A DNA stretch of 20,000 bases, from the IMG/VR virus record IMGVR_UViG_3300013005_004768; one strand, given 5' to 3'. Source of the stretch: an uncultured virus (IMG/VR IMGVR_UViG_3300013005_004768). Taxonomy: Duplodnaviria; Heunggongvirae; Uroviricota; Caudoviricetes. Below are positions 1 to 19,030 of this stretch, piece after piece. Positions within the stretch are counted from its first letter, which is position 1. Every line of letters begins with the position of its first letter. The notes beneath the pieces were generated by a model. It ran no database searches and was not told where the DNA came from. It worked only from the letters and a program-made list of their open reading frames with translations. The translations under genes were made by a program, and so were the position numbers.

Positions 1-956
1 GGAGTAGGAGTGCAACAACTGCAATTATCAAAATTGCCAACAAAACTCCAAATAGGAGGAGCGTTACATTGACAGGCTTCTTTTATTCCAGTAATTATTA
101 GACCAGTAACACAGGATATGGTTAATGAAGAAGTCCATTTATTTATACATGAACCTGATCCTGTGTATCTAGCATTTGGATCACATGTTATCGTAGAACT
201 AAAAGTATCTCCACATGATAAACTTCCACTAGCTTGCCATGTATTTGCTGCTGTTTTTGTATAGGCTACTGGAATGACTAAATTGCCACAAGAAGCATCA
301 AACTGTAAGAATGTATTACCGTCCCACTCACAACATGTAACAGTAGATGGGCTTGGAGTATTTGTCGGAGTAGCAGTAATTGTGATAGAAGGAGTAATAG
401 AGGGTGTTACTGTAGCAGTAGCAGATCTTGTGATAGTAACTGTTGGGGTTTGGCTTACTGTAATACTTGGTGTTTGCGTTGGTGTTTGCGTAGGTGTTGG
501 TGTCTGTGTATTGGTCTGAGTAATACTAGGAGTTAGTGTAGGGGTCGATGTAGCTGTTCGACTATTAGTGGGGGTTGCAGTTGGTGTTCTTGTATTAGTA
601 GGGGTGTTTGTTCTAGTTGTTGTTATGCTTGGAGTTACGGTAGGGGTTACTGTTCTTGTTAGTGTTCTAGTTGGTGTTCTTGTTGGGGTAACTGTTCTAG
701 TTACAGTAATGCTTGGAGTTATTGTAGGGGTAAGTGTTGGTGTCGGTGTTGGCGTTTTTTTAGGGGTTCTAGTTGGTGTTGGAGTTTTAGTAGGTGTCTT
801 AGTAGGCGTTTTACTAAGGGAATTTCTATCTATAAAAGGACACCCATCATCCGACCCTATCCTTGGAGGTTTTGGAGTTTCTGTTGGTGTTCTGGTTGGT
901 GTTGGAGATGGCGGAAGTATTTTCCGCTCATTTTGTCCGTTCATTCTGTTTGTCAT
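1..956 (-). CDS. Thr/Pro-repeat (mucin-like) protein with a Cys-rich domain; runs off the window edge
   Basis: Manual translation from ATG at 956 (3 nt after the actin-like gene stop) is open to position 3: [28 protein letters not shown]...(TPT/TPS/TRT repeats)...[21 protein letters not shown]...[26 protein letters not shown]. Absent from the ORF track because there is no stop in the window. Confidence 0.85.
336..914 (-). repeat. Low-complexity coding repeat (TPT/TPS/TRT units)
   Basis: The + strand shows recurrent gttggtgt/ggagt/ggggt units that encode Thr-Pro-Thr tracts on the minus strand. Confidence 0.85.
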
Positions 957-959
957 TTA

Positions 960-1961
960 TTACAATACTTTCGCAGCTATTAAACATCCTTTTGACACTG
1001 AATGTAACGGATCGGCGGCATGCTTAACTTCTTTAATAGACAAAGGAAAATTATTTTCTGATAGTTTTTTCTTAAAATGTTCAATATAACCACCAGCTTG
1101 TGATGTTCCACCAGCAATGACTATTGTTAGTGGGTCTTTAAACTTTGGTAAAGCTTTATGATCTGTTAGTGCTGCTGTTAATTGTTTAGTAGTATAATCT
1201 ATTAAACGATCATAATATGACGATACAGCTGCTAATATAGGATTATCATTATGCTGACCAACATTAAAATTTCCACCCTCTTTCTCAGCCTGTACGACAC
1301 TATCCGGTTCCCCTGTGGCTACGGCGCTCATTCTATCTACCCAATCCCCAGATTTAGTTGTGGAAAATACAACAGTGGGTTCACCATTTAGCATTACACA
1401 AACATTAGTCATACCAGCACCACAGCTAATAGCTATACCAGTATAATCATTATCCGCTAACTCAGCATAGCATAAAGCTTCAGCTTCATTAATTGATCTA
1501 GCGTTATATCCACAGCTATCTAAAATAGTTTTGACTACATCTTCATGATATCCAACATCAAAATCTTCATCTTCTTGGTCTACTGGTTGAGCAGGAACAC
1601 AAAAAACGATCTTTTCAAGGGGCTCCGAAGATTGCCCGACTACTTCCTTTAATATAAAAGCTAAGACTCTTTTCGCATCTTTCTCTTTTGCAGAAACAAC
1701 TCCTTTGTACATTGGTCTTTTAGCGGTGTCGTTTCTCTCAATAGCTTTTTCAATAGCATCTTGTCCGAGGATAATAAAAGAACCGTCTGTATCTTTAATA
1801 AAGACTTTTCCAGCCAATCCCTTTTCTATCATCTTTGTTGCTACTGGAGTAGATGGCTTGATGATATAAAAGGCATCTCTAAAGTCTTTGTATTGTACTT
1901 TATCTCCTTTGTCCTCAGATAAAACAATATAGCTTGTTCCTACGTCAAGACCCCTAGCCAT
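960..1961 (-). CDS. Actin-fold ATPase (MreB/FtsA/ParM-like superfamily)
   Basis: Phosphate-1 GLDVGTS, connect-1 INEAEA, phosphate-2-like SCGAGMTN, adenosine IAGGTS, connect-2 ADPLHSVSKG; 333 aa. Confidence 0.85.
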   Translation of the reverse strand: MARGLDVGTSYIVLSEDKGDKVQYKDFRDAFYIIKPSTPVATKMIEKGLAGKVFIKDTDGSFIILGQDAIEKAIERNDTAKRPMYKGVVSAKEKDAKRVLAFILKEVVGQSSEPLEKIVFCVPAQPVDQEDEDFDVGYHEDVVKTILDSCGYNARSINEAEALCYAELADNDYTGIAISCGAGMTNVCVMLNGEPTVVFSTTKSGDWVDRMSAVATGEPDSVVQAEKEGGNFNVGQHNDNPILAAVSSYYDRLIDYTTKQLTAALTDHKALPKFKDPLTIVIAGGTSQAGGYIEHFKKKLSENNFPLSIKEVKHAADPLHSVSKGCLIAAKVL

Positions 1962-1964
1962 AAT

Positions 1965-2276
1965 TCACCTCTTTAAATTTTGTAGTTTATTAACAGACTC
2001 GGAAATATTCTCGTTTGACAATCTTGTATTTCCTAATTCGTTATATTTTTTCTCCATCCCATCAACACTTATATCTGTAACAAATTTTCTGTCATCTATA
2101 ATAATCTTATTTTGACTTTTTTCATTATTATTATATTGTTTGTTTCTTTTTGATATTGGTTTTTCAATCATTGTATAACTACTATTGTTTAATCTTCCTA
2201 TAATATAACCAATTCCAAAAGAGACAAAATTAAAAAGTACCAATATTATACTTAACAGAGATGCAGTATCTATCAT
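1965..2276 (-). CDS. Hypothetical protein with an N-terminal transmembrane helix
   Basis: Hydrophobic stretch LLSIILVLFNFVSFGIGYIIG followed by a charged domain; AAGGAGG RBS upstream; stop is 3 nt before the actin-like start. Confidence 0.8.
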   Translation of the reverse strand: MIDTASLLSIILVLFNFVSFGIGYIIGRLNNSSYTMIEKPISKRNKQYNNNEKSQNKIIIDDRKFVTDISVDGMEKKYNELGNTRLSNENISESVNKLQNLKR

Positions 2277-2299
2277 GTGGATAGCCTCCTTACCAAATT

Positions 2300-2305
2300 T
2301 ACACC
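2300..2305 (-). promoter_or_regulatory. GGTGTA motif, putative phage-specific promoter
   Basis: Lies between the terminator and the AAGGAGG RBS; the same hexamer is intergenic at 6921, 15653, 17431 and 19053. Confidence 0.55.
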
Positions 2306-2312
2306 ATACTAT

Positions 2313-2343
2313 AAAAGAAAAAAGGAGCGATTGCTCGCTCCTT
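2313..2343 (-). terminator. Rho-independent terminator downstream of ruvB
   Basis: Minus strand AAGGAGCGA-GCAA-TCGCTCCTT: 9-bp stem with a GNRA loop, followed by a T-rich run. Confidence 0.85.
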
Positions 2344-2381
2344 AATTTTAAAAATGGGGTTGTAATCGGCCCGTAGTTTTC

Positions 2382-3272
2382 CTATATCGTACCCATGACT
2401 CTGCCCTTTTGGGTACGAACAACATAACCCTTACGAACCAAAAACGGCTCAATACTATTCTCGATAGTATCTAAAGCTATTCCAGTCATTGCTGATATAG
2501 ACTTAAGACCCAAAGGATTACCCTTGCTTCGTCTCAAAGCATCAATATAAAGCCTATCATACAGATCCAAACCCTTACTATCTATACCCTGAGTAGAAAA
2601 AATGGTATCAATTGTACATGGATCGGTATGGCATATCTTGTAGTTTTTATACCATAATAGTCTAGCATTAAGAATTCTCGGAGTACCCTTGCTTCTTTTT
2701 GCTATCTCAACCAAATCTTCATCAGAGATTTCTAGATCTAATTTAGCAGAGTTCAATCTTGCTACTTTAGCTAGATCATCATCCGTATAGAAAGAAAGAT
2801 GTTCTTTGATTGTAAACCTGTCATAAAATGGCTGACTTAAACTTCCCCCACTAGTAGTCGCTCCGATAAGAGTAAACATTGGAAGATCAATAGTTTCTGG
2901 AGCATCTTCTGATGATATACTAAGTACAAAATCTTCCATGATAGGATACAAAAACTCCTCTACTGTTTTGGGCAACCTGTGTATTTCGTCAATAAACAAC
3001 ACAGACCTAGCAGAGATTCCCATAATATATGGCAAAAGATTTTTTATGCTACGAATATTAGCAGCATTGAGAGTATAAAGACTGACCCCCATTTCGTTTG
3101 CTATAGCACTCGCTATGGTAGTCTTGCCAAGCCCAGGAGGGCCGTCTATTAAAACATGAGGCAGCACACTGCTAGACATTTTACAGCCCATAGCAGAGAT
3201 GCGTAGACGCTCAATAACGTCGCCCTGACCAATGATTTCATCAAAACTCTTCGGCCTTGTAACATTTGCCAT
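2382..3272 (-). CDS. ruvB: Holliday junction branch-migration AAA+ ATPase RuvB
   Basis: RPKSFDEIIGQ N-terminus, Walker A GPPGLGKTT, Walker B LFIDEIHRL, sensor-1 LIGATT, Arg finger DRF, sensor-2 GTPRI, winged-helix EPFLVRKGYVVRTQKGR. Confidence 0.95.
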   Translation of the reverse strand: MANVTRPKSFDEIIGQGDVIERLRISAMGCKMSSSVLPHVLIDGPPGLGKTTIASAIANEMGVSLYTLNAANIRSIKNLLPYIMGISARSVLFIDEIHRLPKTVEEFLYPIMEDFVLSISSEDAPETIDLPMFTLIGATTSGGSLSQPFYDRFTIKEHLSFYTDDDLAKVARLNSAKLDLEISDEDLVEIAKRSKGTPRILNARLLWYKNYKICHTDPCTIDTIFSTQGIDSKGLDLYDRLYIDALRRSKGNPLGLKSISAMTGIALDTIENSIEPFLVRKGYVVRTQKGRVMGTI

Positions 3273-3275
3273 AAT

Positions 3276-3692
3276 TCACATTCCTCCAAAAATTTTCAGA
3301 GCATCCTTCACTAACAATAAAGGATTATTCTGATTAGTAAGATCGTATACTTTATTTACCAAATCTACAGCTTCTTTGTTAGAAAAACCATAGTTTTCCA
3401 AAATTTTATATGCTTTTTTAAGATACTCAGGCTCCTCTTTCGTAACTATTTCAGATGACTTATTAGATTCTGTTCTAGGTTTTGTGGTCTTTTTTGAGAA
3501 TTGTGTTTTTATATTTGCTATCTGGCGTATCTTATAAACATTCCCGCAATCACATACAAGTTTAAAACCCTTCACTTGAACTTGATTCAAAAATAGCCAA
3601 TGTTCTGATTCGCACTCTGTATTTGTGCATTTATATTTAAACTGAGCATCTAGACTAATCGGTTTCAGGCTTTTGGTTTGATTTTGTATCAT
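3276..3692 (-). CDS. Zn-ribbon protein with a C-terminal RuvA domain III-like module
   Basis: N-terminal CTNTEC...CDCG (4 Cys), a Lys/Ser/Thr-rich linker, then KAYKILENYGFSNKEAVDLVNKV...NPLLLVKDALK, matching the RuvA C-terminal pattern (A..L..LG[YF]...EA...V...LI+.AL+). Stop is 3 nt before ruvB. Confidence 0.7.
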   Translation of the reverse strand: MIQNQTKSLKPISLDAQFKYKCTNTECESEHWLFLNQVQVKGFKLVCDCGNVYKIRQIANIKTQFSKKTTKPRTESNKSSEIVTKEEPEYLKKAYKILENYGFSNKEAVDLVNKVYDLTNQNNPLLLVKDALKIFGGM

Positions 3693-4134
3693 CTTCTTCT
3701 TTCACCCAAAAAATAAAATCGTTTTGATCACTATCGTACGCACTATCAAGAATTCCTTTATTAACCAAGGAATTTAATATATTACTAATCATTCTATTAT
3801 TCAGATCTTCTATAATAGTTTGAAGAAGTTTATCAGTTAAACAATATCTTACTTCTTTTGTTTTTTTATTTATCTGTTTCTTTGCGTGGTTTTTAATTAT
3901 AATAGCAGATTCATCATGGGTTAGTGTCTCATTCATCTCCTCTATTTCTTGTTTGCTCATTTCAGATATGGATGCCACCATAGAATCGTGTTCTACTTCT
4001 TTTATAGCTCCAAAAAATTTAAAAACTAATGATCTTGAATGGTCAACAAAGTCATCAAAATCATTTATAAAAAACCATTGTTCATTTTTCATTGAACTAG
4101 GGTTACTCCTTCGTACTTTGGAATCTCTGTCCAC
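3655..4134 (-). CDS. Hypothetical protein (start may be the internal Met of MKNEQW)
   Basis: ORF overlaps both neighbours in operon fashion; the C-terminal LNSLVNKGILDSAYD resembles a winged-helix end (weak). Confidence 0.7.
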   Translation of the reverse strand: MDRDSKVRRSNPSSMKNEQWFFINDFDDFVDHSRSLVFKFFGAIKEVEHDSMVASISEMSKQEIEEMNETLTHDESAIIIKNHAKKQINKKTKEVRYCLTDKLLQTIIEDLNNRMISNILNSLVNKGILDSAYDSDQNDFIFWVKEEDDTKSNQKPETD

Positions 4135-4328
4135 ATCAGTTTAGCAGAGAACTCTGGTTTGTACACTGTGACCACCCTATCTGTTTTTTTATCTTTTTCC
4201 ACAATTGCTTCTACTATTACTCTATCTTCATTAAGTCTTTTTTCTATCTCTCTAATAGAGTCAGACATACTATCGAATGTTTTATTGTATTCTGGTCTAT
4301 TAAATAGTGTTTTAAAATATGTGGTCAT
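4089..4328 (-). CDS. Hypothetical protein
   Basis: 79-aa ORF tightly packed in the minus-strand gene run. Confidence 0.65.
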   Translation of the reverse strand: MTTYFKTLFNRPEYNKTFDSMSDSIREIEKRLNEDRVIVEAIVEKDKKTDRVVTVYKPEFSAKLMWTEIPKYEGVTLVQ

Positions 4329-4330
4329 AA

Positions 4331-4582
4331 TTATTTATCTTTGAGTTCTGTTTGACAGTTATTGTGTTTGTCTACAAATGTTCTTTCAAATCCCAATTCT
4401 GCTAGTATGGGCATTTCGTAAAAGGTAATAGTAAATCTTACATTACCGGCATCATCTGTCATTTTTGTCCACTCAATTCTTTTTGCTTGGCTCATGTTGG
4501 TTGCAAGATCGTATGCTATTAACGGAGTTTCTGTCAAAGAACCAAAAGCCATCGCTAAATATAAAAATAATGCTGGTAACAT
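4331..4582 (-). CDS. Hypothetical protein with a hydrophobic N-terminus (signal peptide/anchor)
   Basis: MLPALFLYLAMAFGSL N-terminus; packed in the operon. Confidence 0.65.
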   Translation of the reverse strand: MLPALFLYLAMAFGSLTETPLIAYDLATNMSQAKRIEWTKMTDDAGNVRFTITFYEMPILAELGFERTFVDKHNNCQTELKDK

Positions 4583-4596
4583 AACATCCGTGTCTT

Positions 4597-5007
4597 TCAG
4601 TTTAAAATATCAAACATACCATCATAATAATTCGGCTGTTGTAAAAAGTGAACAGCGTTTGCTATTAAATGATTTCTATACTCAGTATCTAATTTGTTGT
4701 GAATAAAATATTTTGTTTTGTAAATTGGTTCTTTGTAATGATTGTTCCCCAAATACAGGGAGTTTTTGAAGTTCCCTGATTTGGAGAAGTAATCATTCAC
4801 AGGTAACGAACCTTTAGGAAAGCTCGGGCCAATATACCATACGTTTGAAGGATGTTCAACTATTTCATTTAGAGTATCATATAACATTTTTCCCCAAGCA
4901 TCCCAAGCGTCGGGGTCAAACTTGAAATACTTTTTATAATGACTCTCTAAATTGTCCTGACTATCACCATAGTCATCGTAGTCATCATCTTCATAATCTT
5001 CGTGCAT
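4597..5007 (-). CDS. Hypothetical protein with an acidic N-terminus
   Basis: 136-aa ORF starting 3 nt after the primase stop. Confidence 0.7.
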   Translation of the reverse strand: MHEDYEDDDYDDYGDSQDNLESHYKKYFKFDPDAWDAWGKMLYDTLNEIVEHPSNVWYIGPSFPKGSLPVNDYFSKSGNFKNSLYLGNNHYKEPIYKTKYFIHNKLDTEYRNHLIANAVHFLQQPNYYDGMFDILN

Positions 5008-6312: not shown

Positions 6313-6888
6313 CTATTTACTAACTCCATATTTATTCTTGAGACTTTCCATTGTTCTATTAATTTTCACTTCGCTTTTTTTGGTAAATTTATCACTATCA
6401 GATAGTTCATAATGCAACTCTCTATGACATCTATTACAAAGCAGTTTACACTTTTTTATTTCTTGTAACAGTTTTTCAAAATTTGTATTAATTTCTCCTA
6501 TCGCATACTCTTTGATCGCAGGATCTAAATGATGAAAATCTAATGCCGATTGACACTTATTGTATCCACATTTTTCACATCTGTTGCCCAGTTGTTCTAT
6601 TAGAATTTTTTTCTTTGCTATTTTAATGATTTTGTTAGCGCATTTACTACAAGTTTTCATTGAGCTTTTTTTATCACAAATTTCACAGTTGGTTATACCT
6701 AATGCTTTTCTGTTTGTTTTATCGTGTGGTCTTAAGTTTTTAGTTAAGTACCCTAGTCGTTTTTTAGCCTCATGAATAGATGATTTAGAACATCCATATA
6801 ATTCGGCTAACTCATACGAGGTTTTACCTTCAAGTATATGCTGCTTGAATCTTTTCTTATCCTTGATAATTTCTTTAATAGTCATCAT
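6313..6888 (-). CDS. HNH endonuclease with N-terminal HTH and Zn-binding motifs (homing-endonuclease-like)
   Basis: HTH GKTSYELAELYGCSKSSIHEAKKRLG; CEIC...CSKC; CEKCGY...ALDFHHLDP...LLCNRCHRELH. Start placed at ATG 6888 because the upstream 57 nt form a hairpin. Confidence 0.85.
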   Translation of the reverse strand: MMTIKEIIKDKKRFKQHILEGKTSYELAELYGCSKSSIHEAKKRLGYLTKNLRPHDKTNRKALGITNCEICDKKSSMKTCSKCANKIIKIAKKKILIEQLGNRCEKCGYNKCQSALDFHHLDPAIKEYAIGEINTNFEKLLQEIKKCKLLCNRCHRELHYELSDSDKFTKKSEVKINRTMESLKNKYGVSK

Positions 6889-6891
6889 AAA

Positions 6892-6942
6892 CCCCCGGAG
6901 AATGAAAGTATACCTTTTAATACACCTTTCAAACTCCGAGGG
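6892..6942 (-). promoter_or_regulatory. RBS-occluding hairpin containing the GGTGTA motif
   Basis: Minus strand CCCTCGGAG-TT-TGAAAGGTGTATT-AAAA-GGTATACTTTCA-TT-CTCCGGGGG, ending 3 nt before ATG 6888. Confidence 0.65.
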
Positions 6943-6955
6943 CATGATTTATTTT

Positions 6956-17451: not shown

Positions 17452-18432
17452 TCAATCGGTTTTATCCTTTACTTCCTTCACATATTTCATCAATGGATTT
17501 TCTTGTTTAGGTATAATGGTTTTATGATTAGTAGTCCATGCTGGCAGTTTACCAGATAGCTTAGTTTTCTTTTTAGCTTTTTGTTTTTGGTATTGTTCTT
17601 CTAGTCTTATTCTTTTTTGTTGAAAAGTTTCTTTCGGTTTATTTTTTTGGAAATGTGGCCTTATGCAACTTTTAAGTTTTTCACTAGCATTAGGATGATT
17701 CAATAGAAGATTTATAAAATATGGAAAAGCTTGACGTAGTTGTTTTTTAATTTCATCTTCACTAAGATTATTATAGTATTTTACTTTAGAATTAATCCAT
17801 GATTGATCTTTGTTTTTAAAATAATTGCTAATATCTTTATTGTCAACAGCTTTAGGCTTTTTTTTCTTTTTATGTTGCTTTATATAGTTATCAATTTCAT
17901 TTTTTATAACATCTAAAGACGATTCTTCTTTTTTCGATGTTGTATTTATTACTTCTGGTTTATTAGCATTAGTAGAGATAGGTTTCTTTTTGTTTTTATT
18001 CTTATGTTTCTTTCTCTTGATATGGTTATGCTCAAATAGTCTTTCTGAATTATATTGAATATCACTATTAAATGCTTGAGCCCAAATTTGCCATTCATCT
18101 AAAGTATTTTTGCTATTTTGACAAAATAATTTATTTAACAAGCTTTTCTTTTTACCAATATGCTTGTCTTGCTCAACAAAATTATGGCATGGTTCACACA
18201 ATGTAATTAATTCATGCTGATCTCCCTGACCCAGCATGATAATTTTTGTGTAATCAATATGATGAACTGTTTTAGAAGGAGTGCCACATACTTGACAACA
18301 TTTACCATCTCTTTCTAAGACTAATTGCCTAATATTCCACCATAGTCTAGATTTTATATAGGCATCATAACTTCTAAAACCTAGCTCTTTCCATGCTGGT
18401 GGCATAATTCTATATGTCTCTTTCTTCTCCAT
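17452..18432 (-). CDS. HNH endonuclease with a long Lys-rich C-terminal extension
   Basis: YIKSRLWWNIRQLVLERDGKCCQVCG...VHHIDY...LITLCEPCH. Confidence 0.85.
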   Translation of the reverse strand: MEKKETYRIMPPAWKELGFRSYDAYIKSRLWWNIRQLVLERDGKCCQVCGTPSKTVHHIDYTKIIMLGQGDQHELITLCEPCHNFVEQDKHIGKKKSLLNKLFCQNSKNTLDEWQIWAQAFNSDIQYNSERLFEHNHIKRKKHKNKNKKKPISTNANKPEVINTTSKKEESSLDVIKNEIDNYIKQHKKKKKPKAVDNKDISNYFKNKDQSWINSKVKYYNNLSEDEIKKQLRQAFPYFINLLLNHPNASEKLKSCIRPHFQKNKPKETFQQKRIRLEEQYQKQKAKKKTKLSGKLPAWTTNHKTIIPKQENPLMKYVKEVKDKTD

Positions 18433-19030
18433 GAAGAATCTTATTACTTTTCTTGATGTTGTCTATTGCCCACAATGGTTGTAAATTTGTATAGTGAAAA
18501 CATTTTTTTTGTTCTGACTCTTTGGACATATCAAATGATGAACATGGTAATATATGATCTATATGCCATTTTCCATAATTGTCCCAACTCATTCCAATTG
18601 TGAATTTAGTTTCTAGATGAATTTTTAACTCACTTATTGTGCATCCTAAATAATCTAAGGTCGTTGTCGTTTTTTTATTATTCTTGATGGCTGTTCTTAA
18701 TCTAGTCCTTAAATTATAGGCTATTTTAAAAGACACGTCCTGTTTTCTTCTTGCTTTCTCTCTTTTTGCTCTTTGTTGATATATCTTTTTTTTATGCTTG
18801 TCAAAATATTCTTGTACCTTGTCCTTATTTTCTTCTCTATATTTTTTAGCATATTCTAGCTTAGAGTCTTTATTTTGAATGTAATTATTAGTAACCCTAT
18901 CTAATACATTGGCTTTATTCTTTTTGTACCATTCTTGCTGACATTTTTTATTGCAATTTTTGCACCATGTTCCTTTTTTCCATTCATTATGTTCTACTTT
19001 ACAAGAAGAGCAGATTTTATTCTTTTTCAT
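18410..19030 (-). CDS. HNH-like (His-Me finger) endonuclease with an N-terminal Zn finger
   Basis: CSSC...CKNC; LGCTISELKIHLETKF..GMSWDNYGKWHIDHILP...HYTNLQPLWAIDNIKKSNK. Confidence 0.85.
   Translation of the reverse strand: MKKNKICSSCKVEHNEWKKGTWCKNCNKKCQQEWYKKNKANVLDRVTNNYIQNKDSKLEYAKKYREENKDKVQEYFDKHKKKIYQQRAKREKARRKQDVSFKIAYNLRTRLRTAIKNNKKTTTTLDYLGCTISELKIHLETKFTIGMSWDNYGKWHIDHILPCSSFDMSKESEQKKCFHYTNLQPLWAIDNIKKSNKILHGEERDI

What the first reader, a model, noticed from the sequence alone, without database searches (positions are those of the whole stretch)
2382..3692. RuvB paired with a non-canonical adaptor: Zn-ribbon fused to a RuvA domain III-like module
Seen: the 138-aa gene in the ruvA position (3 nt before ruvB) has a 4-Cys ribbon, a flexible linker and a C-terminal helical module resembling RuvA domain III, but no recognisable OB fold or HhH motifs. 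Established: RuvA domains I/II bind the Holliday junction and domain III binds and activates RuvB. Inference: the phage kept the motor-loading module and swapped the substrate-recognition module. This would redirect RuvB to another DNA structure or a protein-DNA complex (forks, D-loops, promoters), making it a candidate undescribed RuvB system.
Basis: partly seen in the sequence, partly recalled or inferred. Interest (0 to 1): 0.8.

Follow-up and report, generated by a model that had tools for sequence, protein, structure and literature searches.

The report
Phage RuvB with zinc-ribbon mini-RuvA
A large uncultured lake phage encodes its own RuvB DNA motor next to a small protein that keeps only the RuvB-docking end of RuvA, joined to a zinc ribbon instead of RuvA's junction-binding domains.

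Summary
Window 3276-3692 (-) encodes a 138-aa protein ending 3 nt before a bona fide ruvB (2382-3272, -). It has an invariant 4-Cys zinc ribbon, a disordered linker and a C-terminal three-helix module homologous to RuvA domain III. Support for that homology: Pfam RuvA_C in 22 of 145 family members; hhalign E 2.8e-6; the top structure matches are all RuvA domain III, Z 7.5-8.6. There is no OB fold or HhH, and no RuvA_N or RuvC in 4 complete related genomes.

The gene lies directly before ruvB in 77 of 79 related viral loci; the other 2 are cut off.

A third gene, 'up145' (145 aa, no recognised fold), precedes the pair in 79 of 79 and 80 of 80 loci. And the adaptor is missing from 13 of 80 RuvB-centred loci, with at least 3 independent changes on a quick RuvB tree. 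That includes 3 complete genomes. So it is an accessory partner, not an obligate one.

Verdict: a real, apparently undescribed variant of the RuvAB system in freshwater phages. The claim that RuvB is redirected to another substrate is still inference.

The parts
3276..3692 (-). Adaptor gene (138 aa + stop): zinc ribbon - linker - RuvA domain III-like module
   Evidence: ORF. 36 close homologues and 360 clusters at 50% identity. AF2 model md1c7eba6d376.
3519..3668 (-). Zinc-ribbon domain, residues 9-58 (C22, C27, C47, C49; conserved P11, Y20, H31, W32)
   Evidence: Invariant or near-invariant columns in A1 and A2. It is the most conserved part: mean pairwise identity 0.49 against 0.29 for dIII and 0.21 for the linker. 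Only generic zinc-ribbon Pfam hits below cut-off. The Atlas gives generic Zn_ribbon_4/5-like neighbours.
3432..3518 (-). Lys/Thr/Ser-rich flexible linker, residues 59-87
   Evidence: pLDDT <50 for residues 68-85. Poorly conserved and variable in length in A1 and A2.
3279..3431 (-). RuvA domain III-like three-helix module, residues 88-138 (L98, Y101, G102, F103, E107, L127, K129 conserved)
   Evidence: hhalign E 2.8e-6, adaptor 85-137 against RuvA 149-199. Foldseek top hit 1ixs_A: TM(target) 0.78, rmsd 1.4 A over 45 columns. VIA Z 8.6/8.0/7.8/7.5 to RuvA dIII. Pfam RuvA_C in 22 of 145 members.
3282..3287 (-). GGAGGA Shine-Dalgarno for ruvB, embedded in the adaptor's C-terminal Gly-Gly codons
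   Evidence: Read directly from the sequence. It lies 9 nt upstream of the ruvB ATG at 3270-3272.
2382..3272 (-). Phage ruvB (296 aa)
   Evidence: Pfam RuvB_N, lid and RuvB_C. NCBIfam NF000868 at 286.4 bits, at or above the cut-off of 282. Walker A/B, sensor 1, Arg finger R152 and sensor 2 are invariant in the alignment with bacterial RuvB. The presensor-1 beta-hairpin is 4 residues shorter and the termini are trimmed.
3655..4092 (-). 'up145': conserved 145-aa gene (start at M15 of the 159-aa ORF), overlapping the adaptor start by 38 nt. Acidic, with a basic hairpin and a conserved C-terminal EKPETD.
   Evidence: Present upstream in 79 of 79 adaptor-centred loci and 80 of 80 RuvB-centred loci. 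Alignment A6. AF2 pLDDT 80.9, pTM 0.69. No clear fold match. Weak DsrD and HTH_56 hits.

Best explanation
The 138-aa protein is a cut-down, domain-swapped descendant of RuvA. It serves as an accessory coupling subunit for the phage's own RuvB motor.

**Proposed mechanism.** Its C-terminal domain III-like bundle docks on the large ATPase domain of RuvB. [quoted passage not shown] Once docked, it tethers the RuvB ring and tunes its nucleotide cycle. The flexible linker lets it reach the ring. The strongly conserved, basic N-terminal zinc ribbon supplies the anchor that RuvA domains I/II normally supply, by holding DNA or a partner protein.

**Genomic setting.** The pair is translationally coupled. 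It sits with a third conserved gene (up145) in the early/DNA-metabolism region of a ~244-kb freshwater phage. That phage also encodes RecA, SSB, DnaB, a primase, a split DnaE, two endonuclease VII-like proteins and an ERCC4 nuclease. The most likely job is therefore branch migration or fork remodelling during recombination-dependent replication and repair of the phage genome.

**Accessory status.** The adaptor has been lost repeatedly while RuvB and up145 stay, so it enhances or directs RuvB rather than being indispensable.

**What is shown and what is inferred.**
- Shown by computation: the domain architecture, the homology to domain III, an intact RuvB, the gene linkage, the absence of RuvA domains I/II and of RuvC, and the repeated absence of the adaptor.
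- Inferred: docking on RuvB, the effect on its ATPase, what the zinc ribbon binds, and the DNA substrate.
For: **Domain III homology by independent routes.**
- Pfam RuvA_C is the commonest family among 145 diverse members (22 of 145, best E 3.5e-6).
- hhalign against 8 bacterial RuvA gives probability 88.4% and E 2.8e-6 over 51 columns. The RuvA-invariant A158/L162/G166/Y167/E171 align with adaptor A94/L98/G102/F103/E107.
- Foldseek ranks 1-7 are all RuvA.
- VIA ranks 1-4 are RuvA dIII, Z 8.6-7.5, rmsd 1.6-2.2 A, 48-51 residues aligned, then a drop to 5.8.
- NCBIfam ruvA gives E 0.0017 on the window protein itself, matching profile positions 127-202 of 202.

**Linkage.**
- ruvB starts within a few nt downstream in 77 of 79 adaptor-centred loci; L037 and L067 end at the adaptor.
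- 67 of 80 RuvB-centred loci have the adaptor, with a gap of -5 to +22 nt.
- The ruvB Shine-Dalgarno lies inside the adaptor's last codons.

**RuvB looks catalytically competent.** All ATPase motifs are present, as are the E113/D114/R152 equivalents of the trans-acting residues (roles as described in PMC9477746, passages read).

**No other RuvA-like protein.** RuvA_N gives 0 of 4 and RuvC gives 0 of 4 above cut-off in complete genomes. A whole-genome Pfam scan of 294 ORFs in G001 finds none.

**Recombination context.** RecA, SSB, two Endonuclease_7 proteins, ERCC4 and PD-(D/E)XK are encoded.

**Mechanistic precedent.** RuvA D3 binds helix alpha3 plus the presensor-1 hairpin. There it acts as tether, nucleotide-exchange factor and ATPase activator (PMC9477746 and PMC10272136, passages read).
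Against:
- The window protein itself does not reach Pfam's RuvA_C threshold, or even E<=10. It scores 18 bits against the 85-bit NCBIfam ruvA cut-off.
- Domain III has a UBA-like fold that many unrelated proteins share, at Z 4-5.8.
- The phage RuvB presensor-1 hairpin, the expected docking site, is 4 residues shorter than in bacteria. In some clade members it carries a 5-residue insert.
- The adaptor is absent from 13 of 80 RuvB loci. It is also absent from 3 complete genomes: 0 of 3, against a positive control of 4 of 4. The quick tree needs at least 3 well-supported independent changes.
- RuvB hairpins in adaptor-less phages look the same as in their adaptor-bearing relatives. This gives no sign of relaxed constraint on the presumed interface.
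- The zinc ribbon matches only generic ribbons, so nothing points to DNA binding specifically.
Confidence: 0.55

Rival explanations
1. **Three-part RuvA surrogate.** up145 is the DNA- or junction-binding platform. The zinc ribbon of the adaptor binds up145 rather than DNA, so the adaptor merely bridges up145 to RuvB. RuvA's two jobs would then be split between two small proteins.
For: - up145 is the invariant neighbour: 79 of 79 and 80 of 80 loci.
- It overlaps the adaptor start by 38 nt.
- It has a conserved basic hairpin, net charge +3 to +8 in 23 sequences, on an otherwise acidic protein of pI 4.8. The adaptor is basic, pI 9.2.
- There are weak winged-helix signals: DsrD in 10 of 23 members and HTH_56 in 6 of 23.
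- One RNA-library contig bridges the up145/adaptor junction. This is weak, because contigs only show presence and DNA carry-over is possible.
Against: - up145 has no convincing fold or family match: VIA best Z 5.4; Foldseek E>=0.1.
- No interaction test was possible.
- In adaptor-less phages up145 abuts RuvB directly, so a bridge is evidently not required.
Confidence: 0.17
2. **Host-directed decoy or hijacker.** The domain III module targets the host's RuvB. It either blocks host RuvAB or recruits host RuvB to phage DNA, and its position next to the phage ruvB is only operon organisation.
For: - The adaptor is dispensable and repeatedly lost.
- It evolves much faster than RuvB: 33-47% identity against 68-77% in the same loci, not counting loci nearly identical to the window. 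This is typical of host-interaction genes.
- The RuvA-invariant docking-motif positions are conserved.
Against: - Strict adjacency and translational coupling to the phage's own ruvB in every locus that has the adaptor.
- The host is unknown, so nothing could be tested.
- The zinc ribbon is the most conserved part, which a simple decoy would not need.
Confidence: 0.13
3. **Unrelated small zinc-ribbon protein.** This would be, for example, a transcription or replication factor whose C-terminal three-helix bundle is a generic UBA-like interaction module with no RuvB role. The resemblance to RuvA would then be ancient or convergent.
For: - All single-sequence scores are sub-threshold.
- UBA-like folds are common (ranks 5-50).
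- The gene lies among early genes of unknown function.
Against: - RuvA domain III specifically tops every search, by sequence profile and by two structure aligners, with a clear gap to other UBA-like folds.
- The gene sits exactly where ruvA sits in bacteria (for comparison).
Confidence: 0.1

Closest known systems
Bacterial RuvA (TIGR00084 / COG0632), partner of RuvB in the RuvAB branch-migration complex
   Same: - The gene lies immediately upstream of ruvB.
- A C-terminal three-helix domain III is joined by a flexible linker.
- The L-x-x-[LY]-G-[YF]-x-x-x-E motif is conserved.
- Three homologues carry the name 'RuvABC DNA-binding subunit' from a source's own annotation.
   Different: - It lacks domain I (OB fold, the tetramerisation and junction-binding part) and domain II (two HhH motifs).
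- In their place is a ~50-residue 4-Cys zinc ribbon.
- It is 138 aa against about 200 aa.
- It scores 18 bits against the 85-bit equivalog cut-off.
Isolated RuvA domain III in complex with RuvB (PDB 1IXS; 7PBL-7PBT; 7X7P)
   Same: These are the best structural matches to residues 87-138: Z 8.0 and 7.8, rmsd 1.6-1.8 A, 23-27% identity.
   Different: Those are fragments of a full RuvA. Here the domain is naturally attached to a different N-terminal module. The cognate RuvB has a shortened presensor-1 hairpin.
Tethering adaptors of AAA+ motors in general (e.g. SspB for ClpX; recalled, not tested here)
   Same: The logic is the same: a cargo- or anchor-binding domain, a flexible linker, and a small motor-docking element.
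   Different: This is an analogy only, with no homology. Those deliver protein substrates to unfoldases, not DNA to a translocase.
Phage branch-migration helicases of other families (T4 UvsW, recalled; T5 D10, PMC5180179, seen in a search listing only)
   Same: The likely biological role is the same: branch migration or fork remodelling in phage recombination-dependent replication.
   Different: Those are SF2 helicases acting alone. This phage uses a bacterial-type RuvB AAA+ ring with small accessory proteins.

Membership tests
RuvA (TIGR00084 / COG0632) | Domain I: N-terminal OB fold (Pfam RuvA_N, PF01330) | tested here: not met
   No RuvA_N hit in the protein at E<=0.1. No RuvA_N anywhere in 4 + 5 related phage records, while the tool's control genomes ring in 10 of 14. 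The AF2 model shows a zinc ribbon instead.
RuvA (TIGR00084 / COG0632) | Domain II: two helix-hairpin-helix motifs (HHH_5, PF14520) | tested here: not met
   The window protein has only two spurious Pfam hits at E<=0.1, neither of them HhH. Residues 59-87 are predicted disordered.
RuvA (TIGR00084 / COG0632) | Domain III: C-terminal RuvB-binding three-helix bundle (RuvA_C, PF07499) | tested here: met
   Met at family and fold level: 22 of 145 members hit RuvA_C, best E 3.5e-6; hhalign E 2.8e-6; VIA Z 8.6-7.5 and Foldseek top ranks. The window protein alone does not reach Pfam's threshold.
RuvA (TIGR00084 / COG0632) | Curated whole-protein score (NCBIfam equivalog cut-off 85 bits) | tested here: not met
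   18 bits, E 0.0017, matching only profile positions 127-202.
RuvA (TIGR00084 / COG0632) | Physical binding to RuvB and stimulation of its ATPase / branch migration | not testable with these tools
This needs a complex prediction or biochemistry.
RuvB (NF000868 / TIGR00635) | RuvB_N AAA+ domain, RuvB lid and RuvB_C winged-helix head, with curated scores | tested here: met
   Pfam 9.5e-44, 2.7e-8 and 2.9e-16, all above their cut-offs. NF000868 scores 286.4 against a cut-off of 282. TIGR00635 scores 269.8, below its cut-off of 299.05.
RuvB (NF000868 / TIGR00635) | Walker A/B, sensor 1, arginine finger, sensor 2 | tested here: met
   GPPGLGKTT, DEIH, ATT, DRF (R152) and GTPRI are invariant across 20 phage and 4 bacterial RuvB.
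RuvB (NF000868 / TIGR00635) | Presensor-1 beta-hairpin (RuvA domain III docking site) | tested here: inconclusive
   The region is present but 4 residues shorter than in 4 bacterial RuvB. Some clade members carry a 5-residue insert. Whether it still docks domain III could not be tested.
Zinc ribbon (generic; no specific Pfam family) | Two Cys pairs on beta-hairpin knuckles | tested here: met
   The pattern is C22-x4-C27 ... C47-x-C49. Three of the cysteines are invariant and C49 is 99% conserved in 145 sequences. Strands are predicted at 17-21, 30-34, 44-46 and 52-54. Only sub-threshold hits to IBR, Zn_ribbon_SprT and similar families. Metal binding itself was not tested.

The most novel reading that the evidence does not exclude
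A family of large freshwater phages runs a three-component RuvB machine. In it, RuvA's two functions are split between two small proteins.
- up145 is a protein of unrecognised fold that is always present. It would be the DNA or branch-point platform.
- The zinc-ribbon/domain III protein would be a detachable coupling subunit, present in most lineages and lost in some. It would wire that platform, or a different DNA structure, to the RuvB ring.

This would be a natural experiment showing that domain III is a portable 'motor plug' that evolution can move onto new targeting modules.
Probability: 0.2. Interest if true: 0.75.

Novelty: new variant of a known kind. Interest (0 to 1): 0.58.

Why it matters
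**Why the case is unusual.** RuvAB is the textbook bacterial branch-migration motor. Recent cryo-EM work shows that RuvA domain III is not just a tether but operates the RuvB nucleotide cycle (PMC9477746, passages read). Here domain III occurs in nature without domains I/II, on a different N-terminal module. It is paired with a streamlined RuvB and is repeatedly lost. That gives a compact, testable system for two questions:
- What does domain III alone do to a RuvB ring?
- Can the motor be retargeted?

**Phage biology.** A survey of 224 jumbo phages noted that their RuvC-like resolvases are not coupled to a RuvB-like ATPase (PMC7824862, passage read). This uncultured freshwater clade does encode RuvB, with endonuclease VII-type rather than RuvC-type resolvase candidates.

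**Prior description.** My literature searches found no description of this adaptor. These searches cover open-access text only, so a description in a subscription journal cannot be excluded.

Tried and rejected
**Unavailable or delayed tools**
- Complex prediction (adaptor 84-138 with RuvB) was unavailable, so there is no verdict on binding.

**Searches for the adaptor and related proteins elsewhere**
- Adaptor against 50,697 phage records: no match.
- RuvB against the same records: hits at <=41% identity. The 8 records inspected are bacterial ruvB regions filed as phage: 7 with an adjacent ruvA-like gene, and one (Javan141) with host-like flanking genes. I used these only as a source of 8 RuvA and 4 RuvB comparison sequences.
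- The search for homologous proteins with an Acinetobacter RuvA returned only near-identical RuvAs. It was no use for a diverse profile.
- Fused or longer forms of the adaptor (250-2000 aa): none found, which is weak evidence. The 150 listed hits of the exhaustive search are all 76-184 aa; the other 210 were not listed.
- Bacterial and archaeal genome scan: a single 1.1-kb contig of a freshwater MAG. The first attempt, with alignment A2, failed because the alignment was too diverse.
- PADLOC: no defence-system match for the adaptor or up145.
- Our earlier findings: nothing.

**Fold and family of the two small proteins**
- BFVD viral fold library: nothing at E<=0.001.
- up145 fold: no convincing match. 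VIA best Z is 5.4. Foldseek gives E>=0.1, with only low-probability MarR/SarA rows. The profile against PDB sequences gives nothing below E 0.05.
- Zinc ribbon: the full-length model's fold searches were filled by the C-terminal domain. The Atlas gave only generic ribbons, all under the tool's naming bar.

**Comparative and expression checks**
- Rejected idea: that adaptor-less phages would show a degenerate RuvB hairpin. They do not.
- RNA evidence: two metatranscriptome runs each hold one ~220-nt identical contig, at 3712-3931 and 3535-3756. The rest of 1900-4400 is uncovered. Contigs cannot show level or strand, and DNA carry-over is possible.
- The careful maximum-likelihood tree did not finish in 300 s, so the quick tree was used.
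Full report
**1. What is at the coordinates**

All genes in this part of the window run on the minus strand.
- The 138-aa ORF at 3276..3692 ends ...FGGM-TGA.
- Three bases (att) follow, then the ATG of a 296-aa ORF at 2382..3272.
- A GGAGGA Shine-Dalgarno (3282-3287) lies inside the last codons of the upstream gene, 9 nt before the downstream start. The two genes are therefore translationally coupled. The near-invariant Gly-Gly at the adaptor's C-terminus may owe part of its conservation to this ribosome-binding site.

The downstream gene is a genuine RuvB.
- Pfam gives RuvB_N 9.5e-44, AAA_lid_4 2.7e-8 and RuvB_C 2.9e-16.
- NCBIfam NF000868 scores 286.4 bits against a cut-off of 282. TIGR00635 scores 269.8, below its cut-off of 299.
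- Aligned with 19 relatives and 4 bacterial RuvB, it keeps Walker A (GPPGLGKTT), Walker B (DEIH), sensor 1, the arginine finger (R152) and sensor 2 (GTPRI). It also keeps E113/D114, the equivalents of trans-acting residues described for bacterial RuvB (PMC9477746, passages read).
- It differs from bacterial RuvB in three ways. It lacks about 16 N-terminal and about 14 C-terminal residues. It also has a 4-residue deletion in the presensor-1 beta-hairpin. Some clade members instead carry a 5-residue insert there.

**2. The 138-aa protein**

On its own it matches no Pfam family, with only two spurious hits at E<=0.1.

It has 36 homologues in the 90%-clustered collection. Three of them are named 'Holliday junction resolvasome RuvABC DNA-binding subunit' by a source's own annotation. 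An exhaustive HMMER search with a 26-sequence profile found 360 clusters at 50% identity with E<=0.001. The 150 that were listed are all 76-184 aa long.

In an alignment of 145 diverse representatives, C22, C27, C47 and G102 are invariant. P11, Y20, H31, W32, C49 and E107 are at least 90% conserved.

The AF2 model (mean pLDDT 68.6) shows three parts:
- a small beta domain at residues 17-54 (pLDDT 70-80);
- a disordered stretch at about 60-88;
- three helices at 89-100, 105-119 and 124-135 (pLDDT about 85).

The zinc-ribbon part is the most conserved. Mean pairwise identity is 0.49, against 0.29 for the helical module and 0.21 for the linker.

**3. Is the C-terminal module RuvA domain III?**

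Several independent routes say yes.

| Route | Result |
|---|---|
| Pfam RuvA_C, members scanned singly | Commonest family among 145 members: 22 of 145, best E 3.5e-6. Also 3 of 26 close relatives, best E 4.6e-5. |
| Family profile against PDB sequences | Domain III of T. thermophilus, Salmonella and E. coli RuvA over its full length, but weakly (E 0.2-1.6) and behind two designed helical proteins. |
| hhalign against 8 diverse bacterial RuvA | Probability 88.4%, E 2.8e-6, 51 columns; adaptor 85-137 on RuvA 149-199. |
| Foldseek against the PDB | Ranks 1-7 are all RuvA. Best is 1ixs_A (domain III bound to RuvB): probability 1.00, target TM 0.78, rmsd 1.4 A over 45 columns, 27% identity. E-values are only 0.16-1.2, as expected for a 50-residue domain. 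|
| VIA-align against 48,161 chains | Ranks 1-4 are RuvA domain III (Z 8.6, 8.0, 7.8, 7.5; rmsd 1.6-2.2 A; 48-51 residues). The next match is Z 5.8, followed by generic UBA-like domains. |
| NCBIfam ruvA on the window protein itself | E 0.0017, 18 bits against a cut-off of 85; residues 58-133 on profile positions 127-202 of 202. |

In the hhalign alignment, the RuvA-invariant A158, L162, G166, Y167 and E171 fall on adaptor A94, L98, G102, F103 and E107. RuvA L165 falls on Y101.

There is no trace of domain I or domain II. The protein is therefore not a RuvA by any curated threshold, but it carries a homologue of RuvA's RuvB-docking domain.

**4. The zinc ribbon**

It matches only generic ribbons below threshold: IBR in 13 of 145 members, Zn_ribbon_SprT in 10 of 145, and similar families. 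The Atlas gives Zn_ribbon_4/5-like neighbours under its naming bar. The domain is basic, with pI 8.8 for residues 1-58. Nothing says what it binds.

**5. Linkage, forward direction**

A scan of IMG/VR with the adaptor profile returned 79 loci, with identity running from 100% down to 33%.
- tblastn finds RuvB starting within a few nt of the adaptor's end in 77 of 79. The other two (L037, L067) end at or inside the adaptor.
- Leaving aside the loci nearly identical to the window, RuvB is 68-77% identical across these loci while the adaptor is only 33-47%.

**6. A third member**

The ORF upstream is listed as 159 aa from a GTG. Its real start is M15, giving 145 aa at 3655..4092. It overlaps the adaptor's start by 38 nt.
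- It is present in 79 of 79 adaptor-centred loci and in 80 of 80 RuvB-centred loci.
- It is acidic (pI 4.8), with a conserved basic hairpin at residues 66-86 (net charge +3 to +8 in 23 sequences). It ends in a conserved EKPETD.
- Its AF2 model is fairly confident: pLDDT 80.9, pTM 0.69.
- It has no convincing structural neighbour. VIA's best Z is 5.4. Foldseek gives E>=0.1, with low-probability MarR/SarA rows.
- Only weak winged-helix family hints appear: DsrD in 10 of 23 members (best E 5.5e-4) and HTH_56 in 6 of 23.

**7. Linkage, reverse direction: the adaptor is dispensable**

A scan with the RuvB alignment gave 80 loci, many from the same contigs as the first set. An HMM of the adaptor family finds it directly upstream of RuvB in 67 of them, with a gap of -5 to +22 nt. 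It is absent in 13. In those, up145 abuts RuvB and there is no remnant of the adaptor on either strand.

Five of the adaptor-less contigs are long records. None of the five holds the adaptor (E<=0.1), RuvA_C (E<=10) or RuvA_N (E<=1), and three of them are rated complete. The same adaptor search finds the gene in 4 of 4 complete adaptor-bearing genomes.

On a quick maximum-likelihood RuvB tree, presence and absence need 9 changes by parsimony. At least 3 of these are forced by well-supported branches. The tree has 70 distinct rows and SH-aLRT support; the careful search did not finish.

RuvB hairpin sequences in adaptor-less phages look like those of their adaptor-bearing neighbours.

**8. Genome context**

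The window lies in a 90-kb fragment, G000. An identical locus sits in G001, a 243,821-bp record with direct terminal repeats that is rated complete.

A Pfam scan at E<=1e-5 of 294 ORFs of at least 70 aa from G001 finds:
- RecA, SSB, DnaB and a Toprim primase;
- a DnaE split into two ORFs;
- a PD-(D/E)XK nuclease;
- two Endonuclease_7 proteins (E 2.5e-13 and 4.9e-13);
- an ERCC4 nuclease, UvdE, an Ogg-type glycosylase and an ATP-dependent ligase;
- ThyX, a class II ribonucleotide reductase, PhoH and a sigma factor;
- many sugar-modifying enzymes.

It finds no RuvA_N, HHH_5 or RuvC. RuvC was also absent above cut-off in 4 of 4 complete genomes.

Other context:
- Neighbours in the window include a primase-polymerase-like protein, an HNH endonuclease, rIIB and rIIA.
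- No cultured phage in the 50,697-record collection has the adaptor.
- 22 lake or freshwater metagenome runs hold the identical stretch.
- The only cellular-genome hit is a 1.1-kb contig in a freshwater MAG.
- The host is unknown.

**9. How it most likely works**

From established RuvAB biology, RuvA domain III binds a hydrophobic surface made of RuvB helix alpha3 and the presensor-1 hairpin. It tethers the ring to the RuvA-junction core and acts as nucleotide-exchange factor and ATPase activator. It reaches the ring through a flexible linker (PMC9477746 and PMC10272136, passages read).

The phage protein keeps exactly the two elements needed for that, domain III and a flexible linker. It replaces the junction-binding core with a conserved basic zinc ribbon. 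I therefore read it as a coupling or regulatory subunit of the phage RuvB, whose ribbon anchors it to DNA or to a partner protein. Given the phage's RecA, SSB and endonuclease VII-type resolvase candidates, it most likely works in recombination-dependent replication or repair.

Its repeated loss shows that RuvB, with up145, can do without it. Binding, the effect on the ATPase, the ribbon's ligand and the DNA substrate are all inference.

Three rivals are scored separately:
- a three-part machine in which up145 is the DNA platform;
- a decoy or hijacker aimed at the host's RuvB;
- an unrelated ribbon protein with a generic UBA-like tail.

**10. Comparison and novelty**

The protein works like RuvA in one respect, the motor plug. 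It fails RuvA membership on domains I and II and on the curated scores.

I found no description of it. The searches were made, over open-access full text and bioRxiv only. [quoted passage not shown]

I rate it a new variant of a known kind. The feature is real and widespread in uncultured freshwater phages (360 clusters at 50% identity). It is of moderate to high interest as a natural dissection of RuvA.

The adaptor's dispensability argues that it is not the sole loader of RuvB.

Noticed in passing
window 960..1961 (-): A phage-encoded actin homologue matches Pfam Volactin full length (E 5.7e-66; MreB_Mbl only 3.3e-5), with weak NCBIfam BeeR, MamK and salactin hits. It lies within 5 kb downstream of ruvB in 39 of 79 related loci and is 69-90% identical in most of them. 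One literature search for 'volactin' with 'phage' found nothing relevant.
   Followed up: partly
window 1965..2276 (-): A 103-aa ORF lies between ruvB and the actin gene. It has an N-terminal hydrophobic segment and no family match. ORFs of similar size occupy the same position in many related loci.
   Followed up: no
window 3655..3692: The 38-nt overlap of up145 and the adaptor is conserved in both reading frames...EKPETD* in one and ...KSLKPI... in the other. Which protein drives the conservation cannot be told.
   Followed up: partly
window 3..956 (-): A long Thr/Pro-rich repeat protein (TPTxTxTPT...) with a Cys-rich C-terminal part runs off the window's low-coordinate end. This region has the window's only positive GC skew.
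   Followed up: no
G001 (L088:281-1906, 1909-2607 and 2782-4650, all -): The phage DnaE-type polymerase is split into a PHP+NTPase ORF and a finger+HhH ORF, with an RNase_T-like exonuclease ORF between them.
   Followed up: no
G001 L085:8-14068 (+) and L087:2702-10684 (+); G004 L083: Giant ORFs of 4686 aa and 2660 aa have almost no family matches. There is also a 5392-aa open frame in a related genome.
   Followed up: no
BFVD hits to model md1c7eba6d376: A 77-aa uncharacterised protein of T4-like phage RB43 (K0NXN6) matches one domain of the adaptor model: probability 0.99, rmsd 2.5 A over 50 columns, 26% identity. A Klebsiella phage KP15 protein matches at probability 0.80. The output does not say which domain is aligned. 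If it is the helical module, domain III-like modules may occur in phages that lack RuvB.
   Followed up: no
window 6313..6945, 17452..18432, 18410..19030 (-): Candidate HNH-type endonuclease genes are scattered through the early region. PHROG HNH families confirm only the first (E 7e-20). The other two are read from their Cys/His motifs.
   Followed up: no
GenBank 'phage' records behind L080, L082, L097-L102: Several records filed as phage are bacterial chromosome fragments carrying host ruvA-ruvB with housekeeping neighbours. Examples are Acinetobacter phage MD-2021a, Wolbachia phage WO (unverified) and wastewater and faecal 'Bacteriophage sp.' clones. Database 'phage RuvB' hits should be read with care.
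   Followed up: partly
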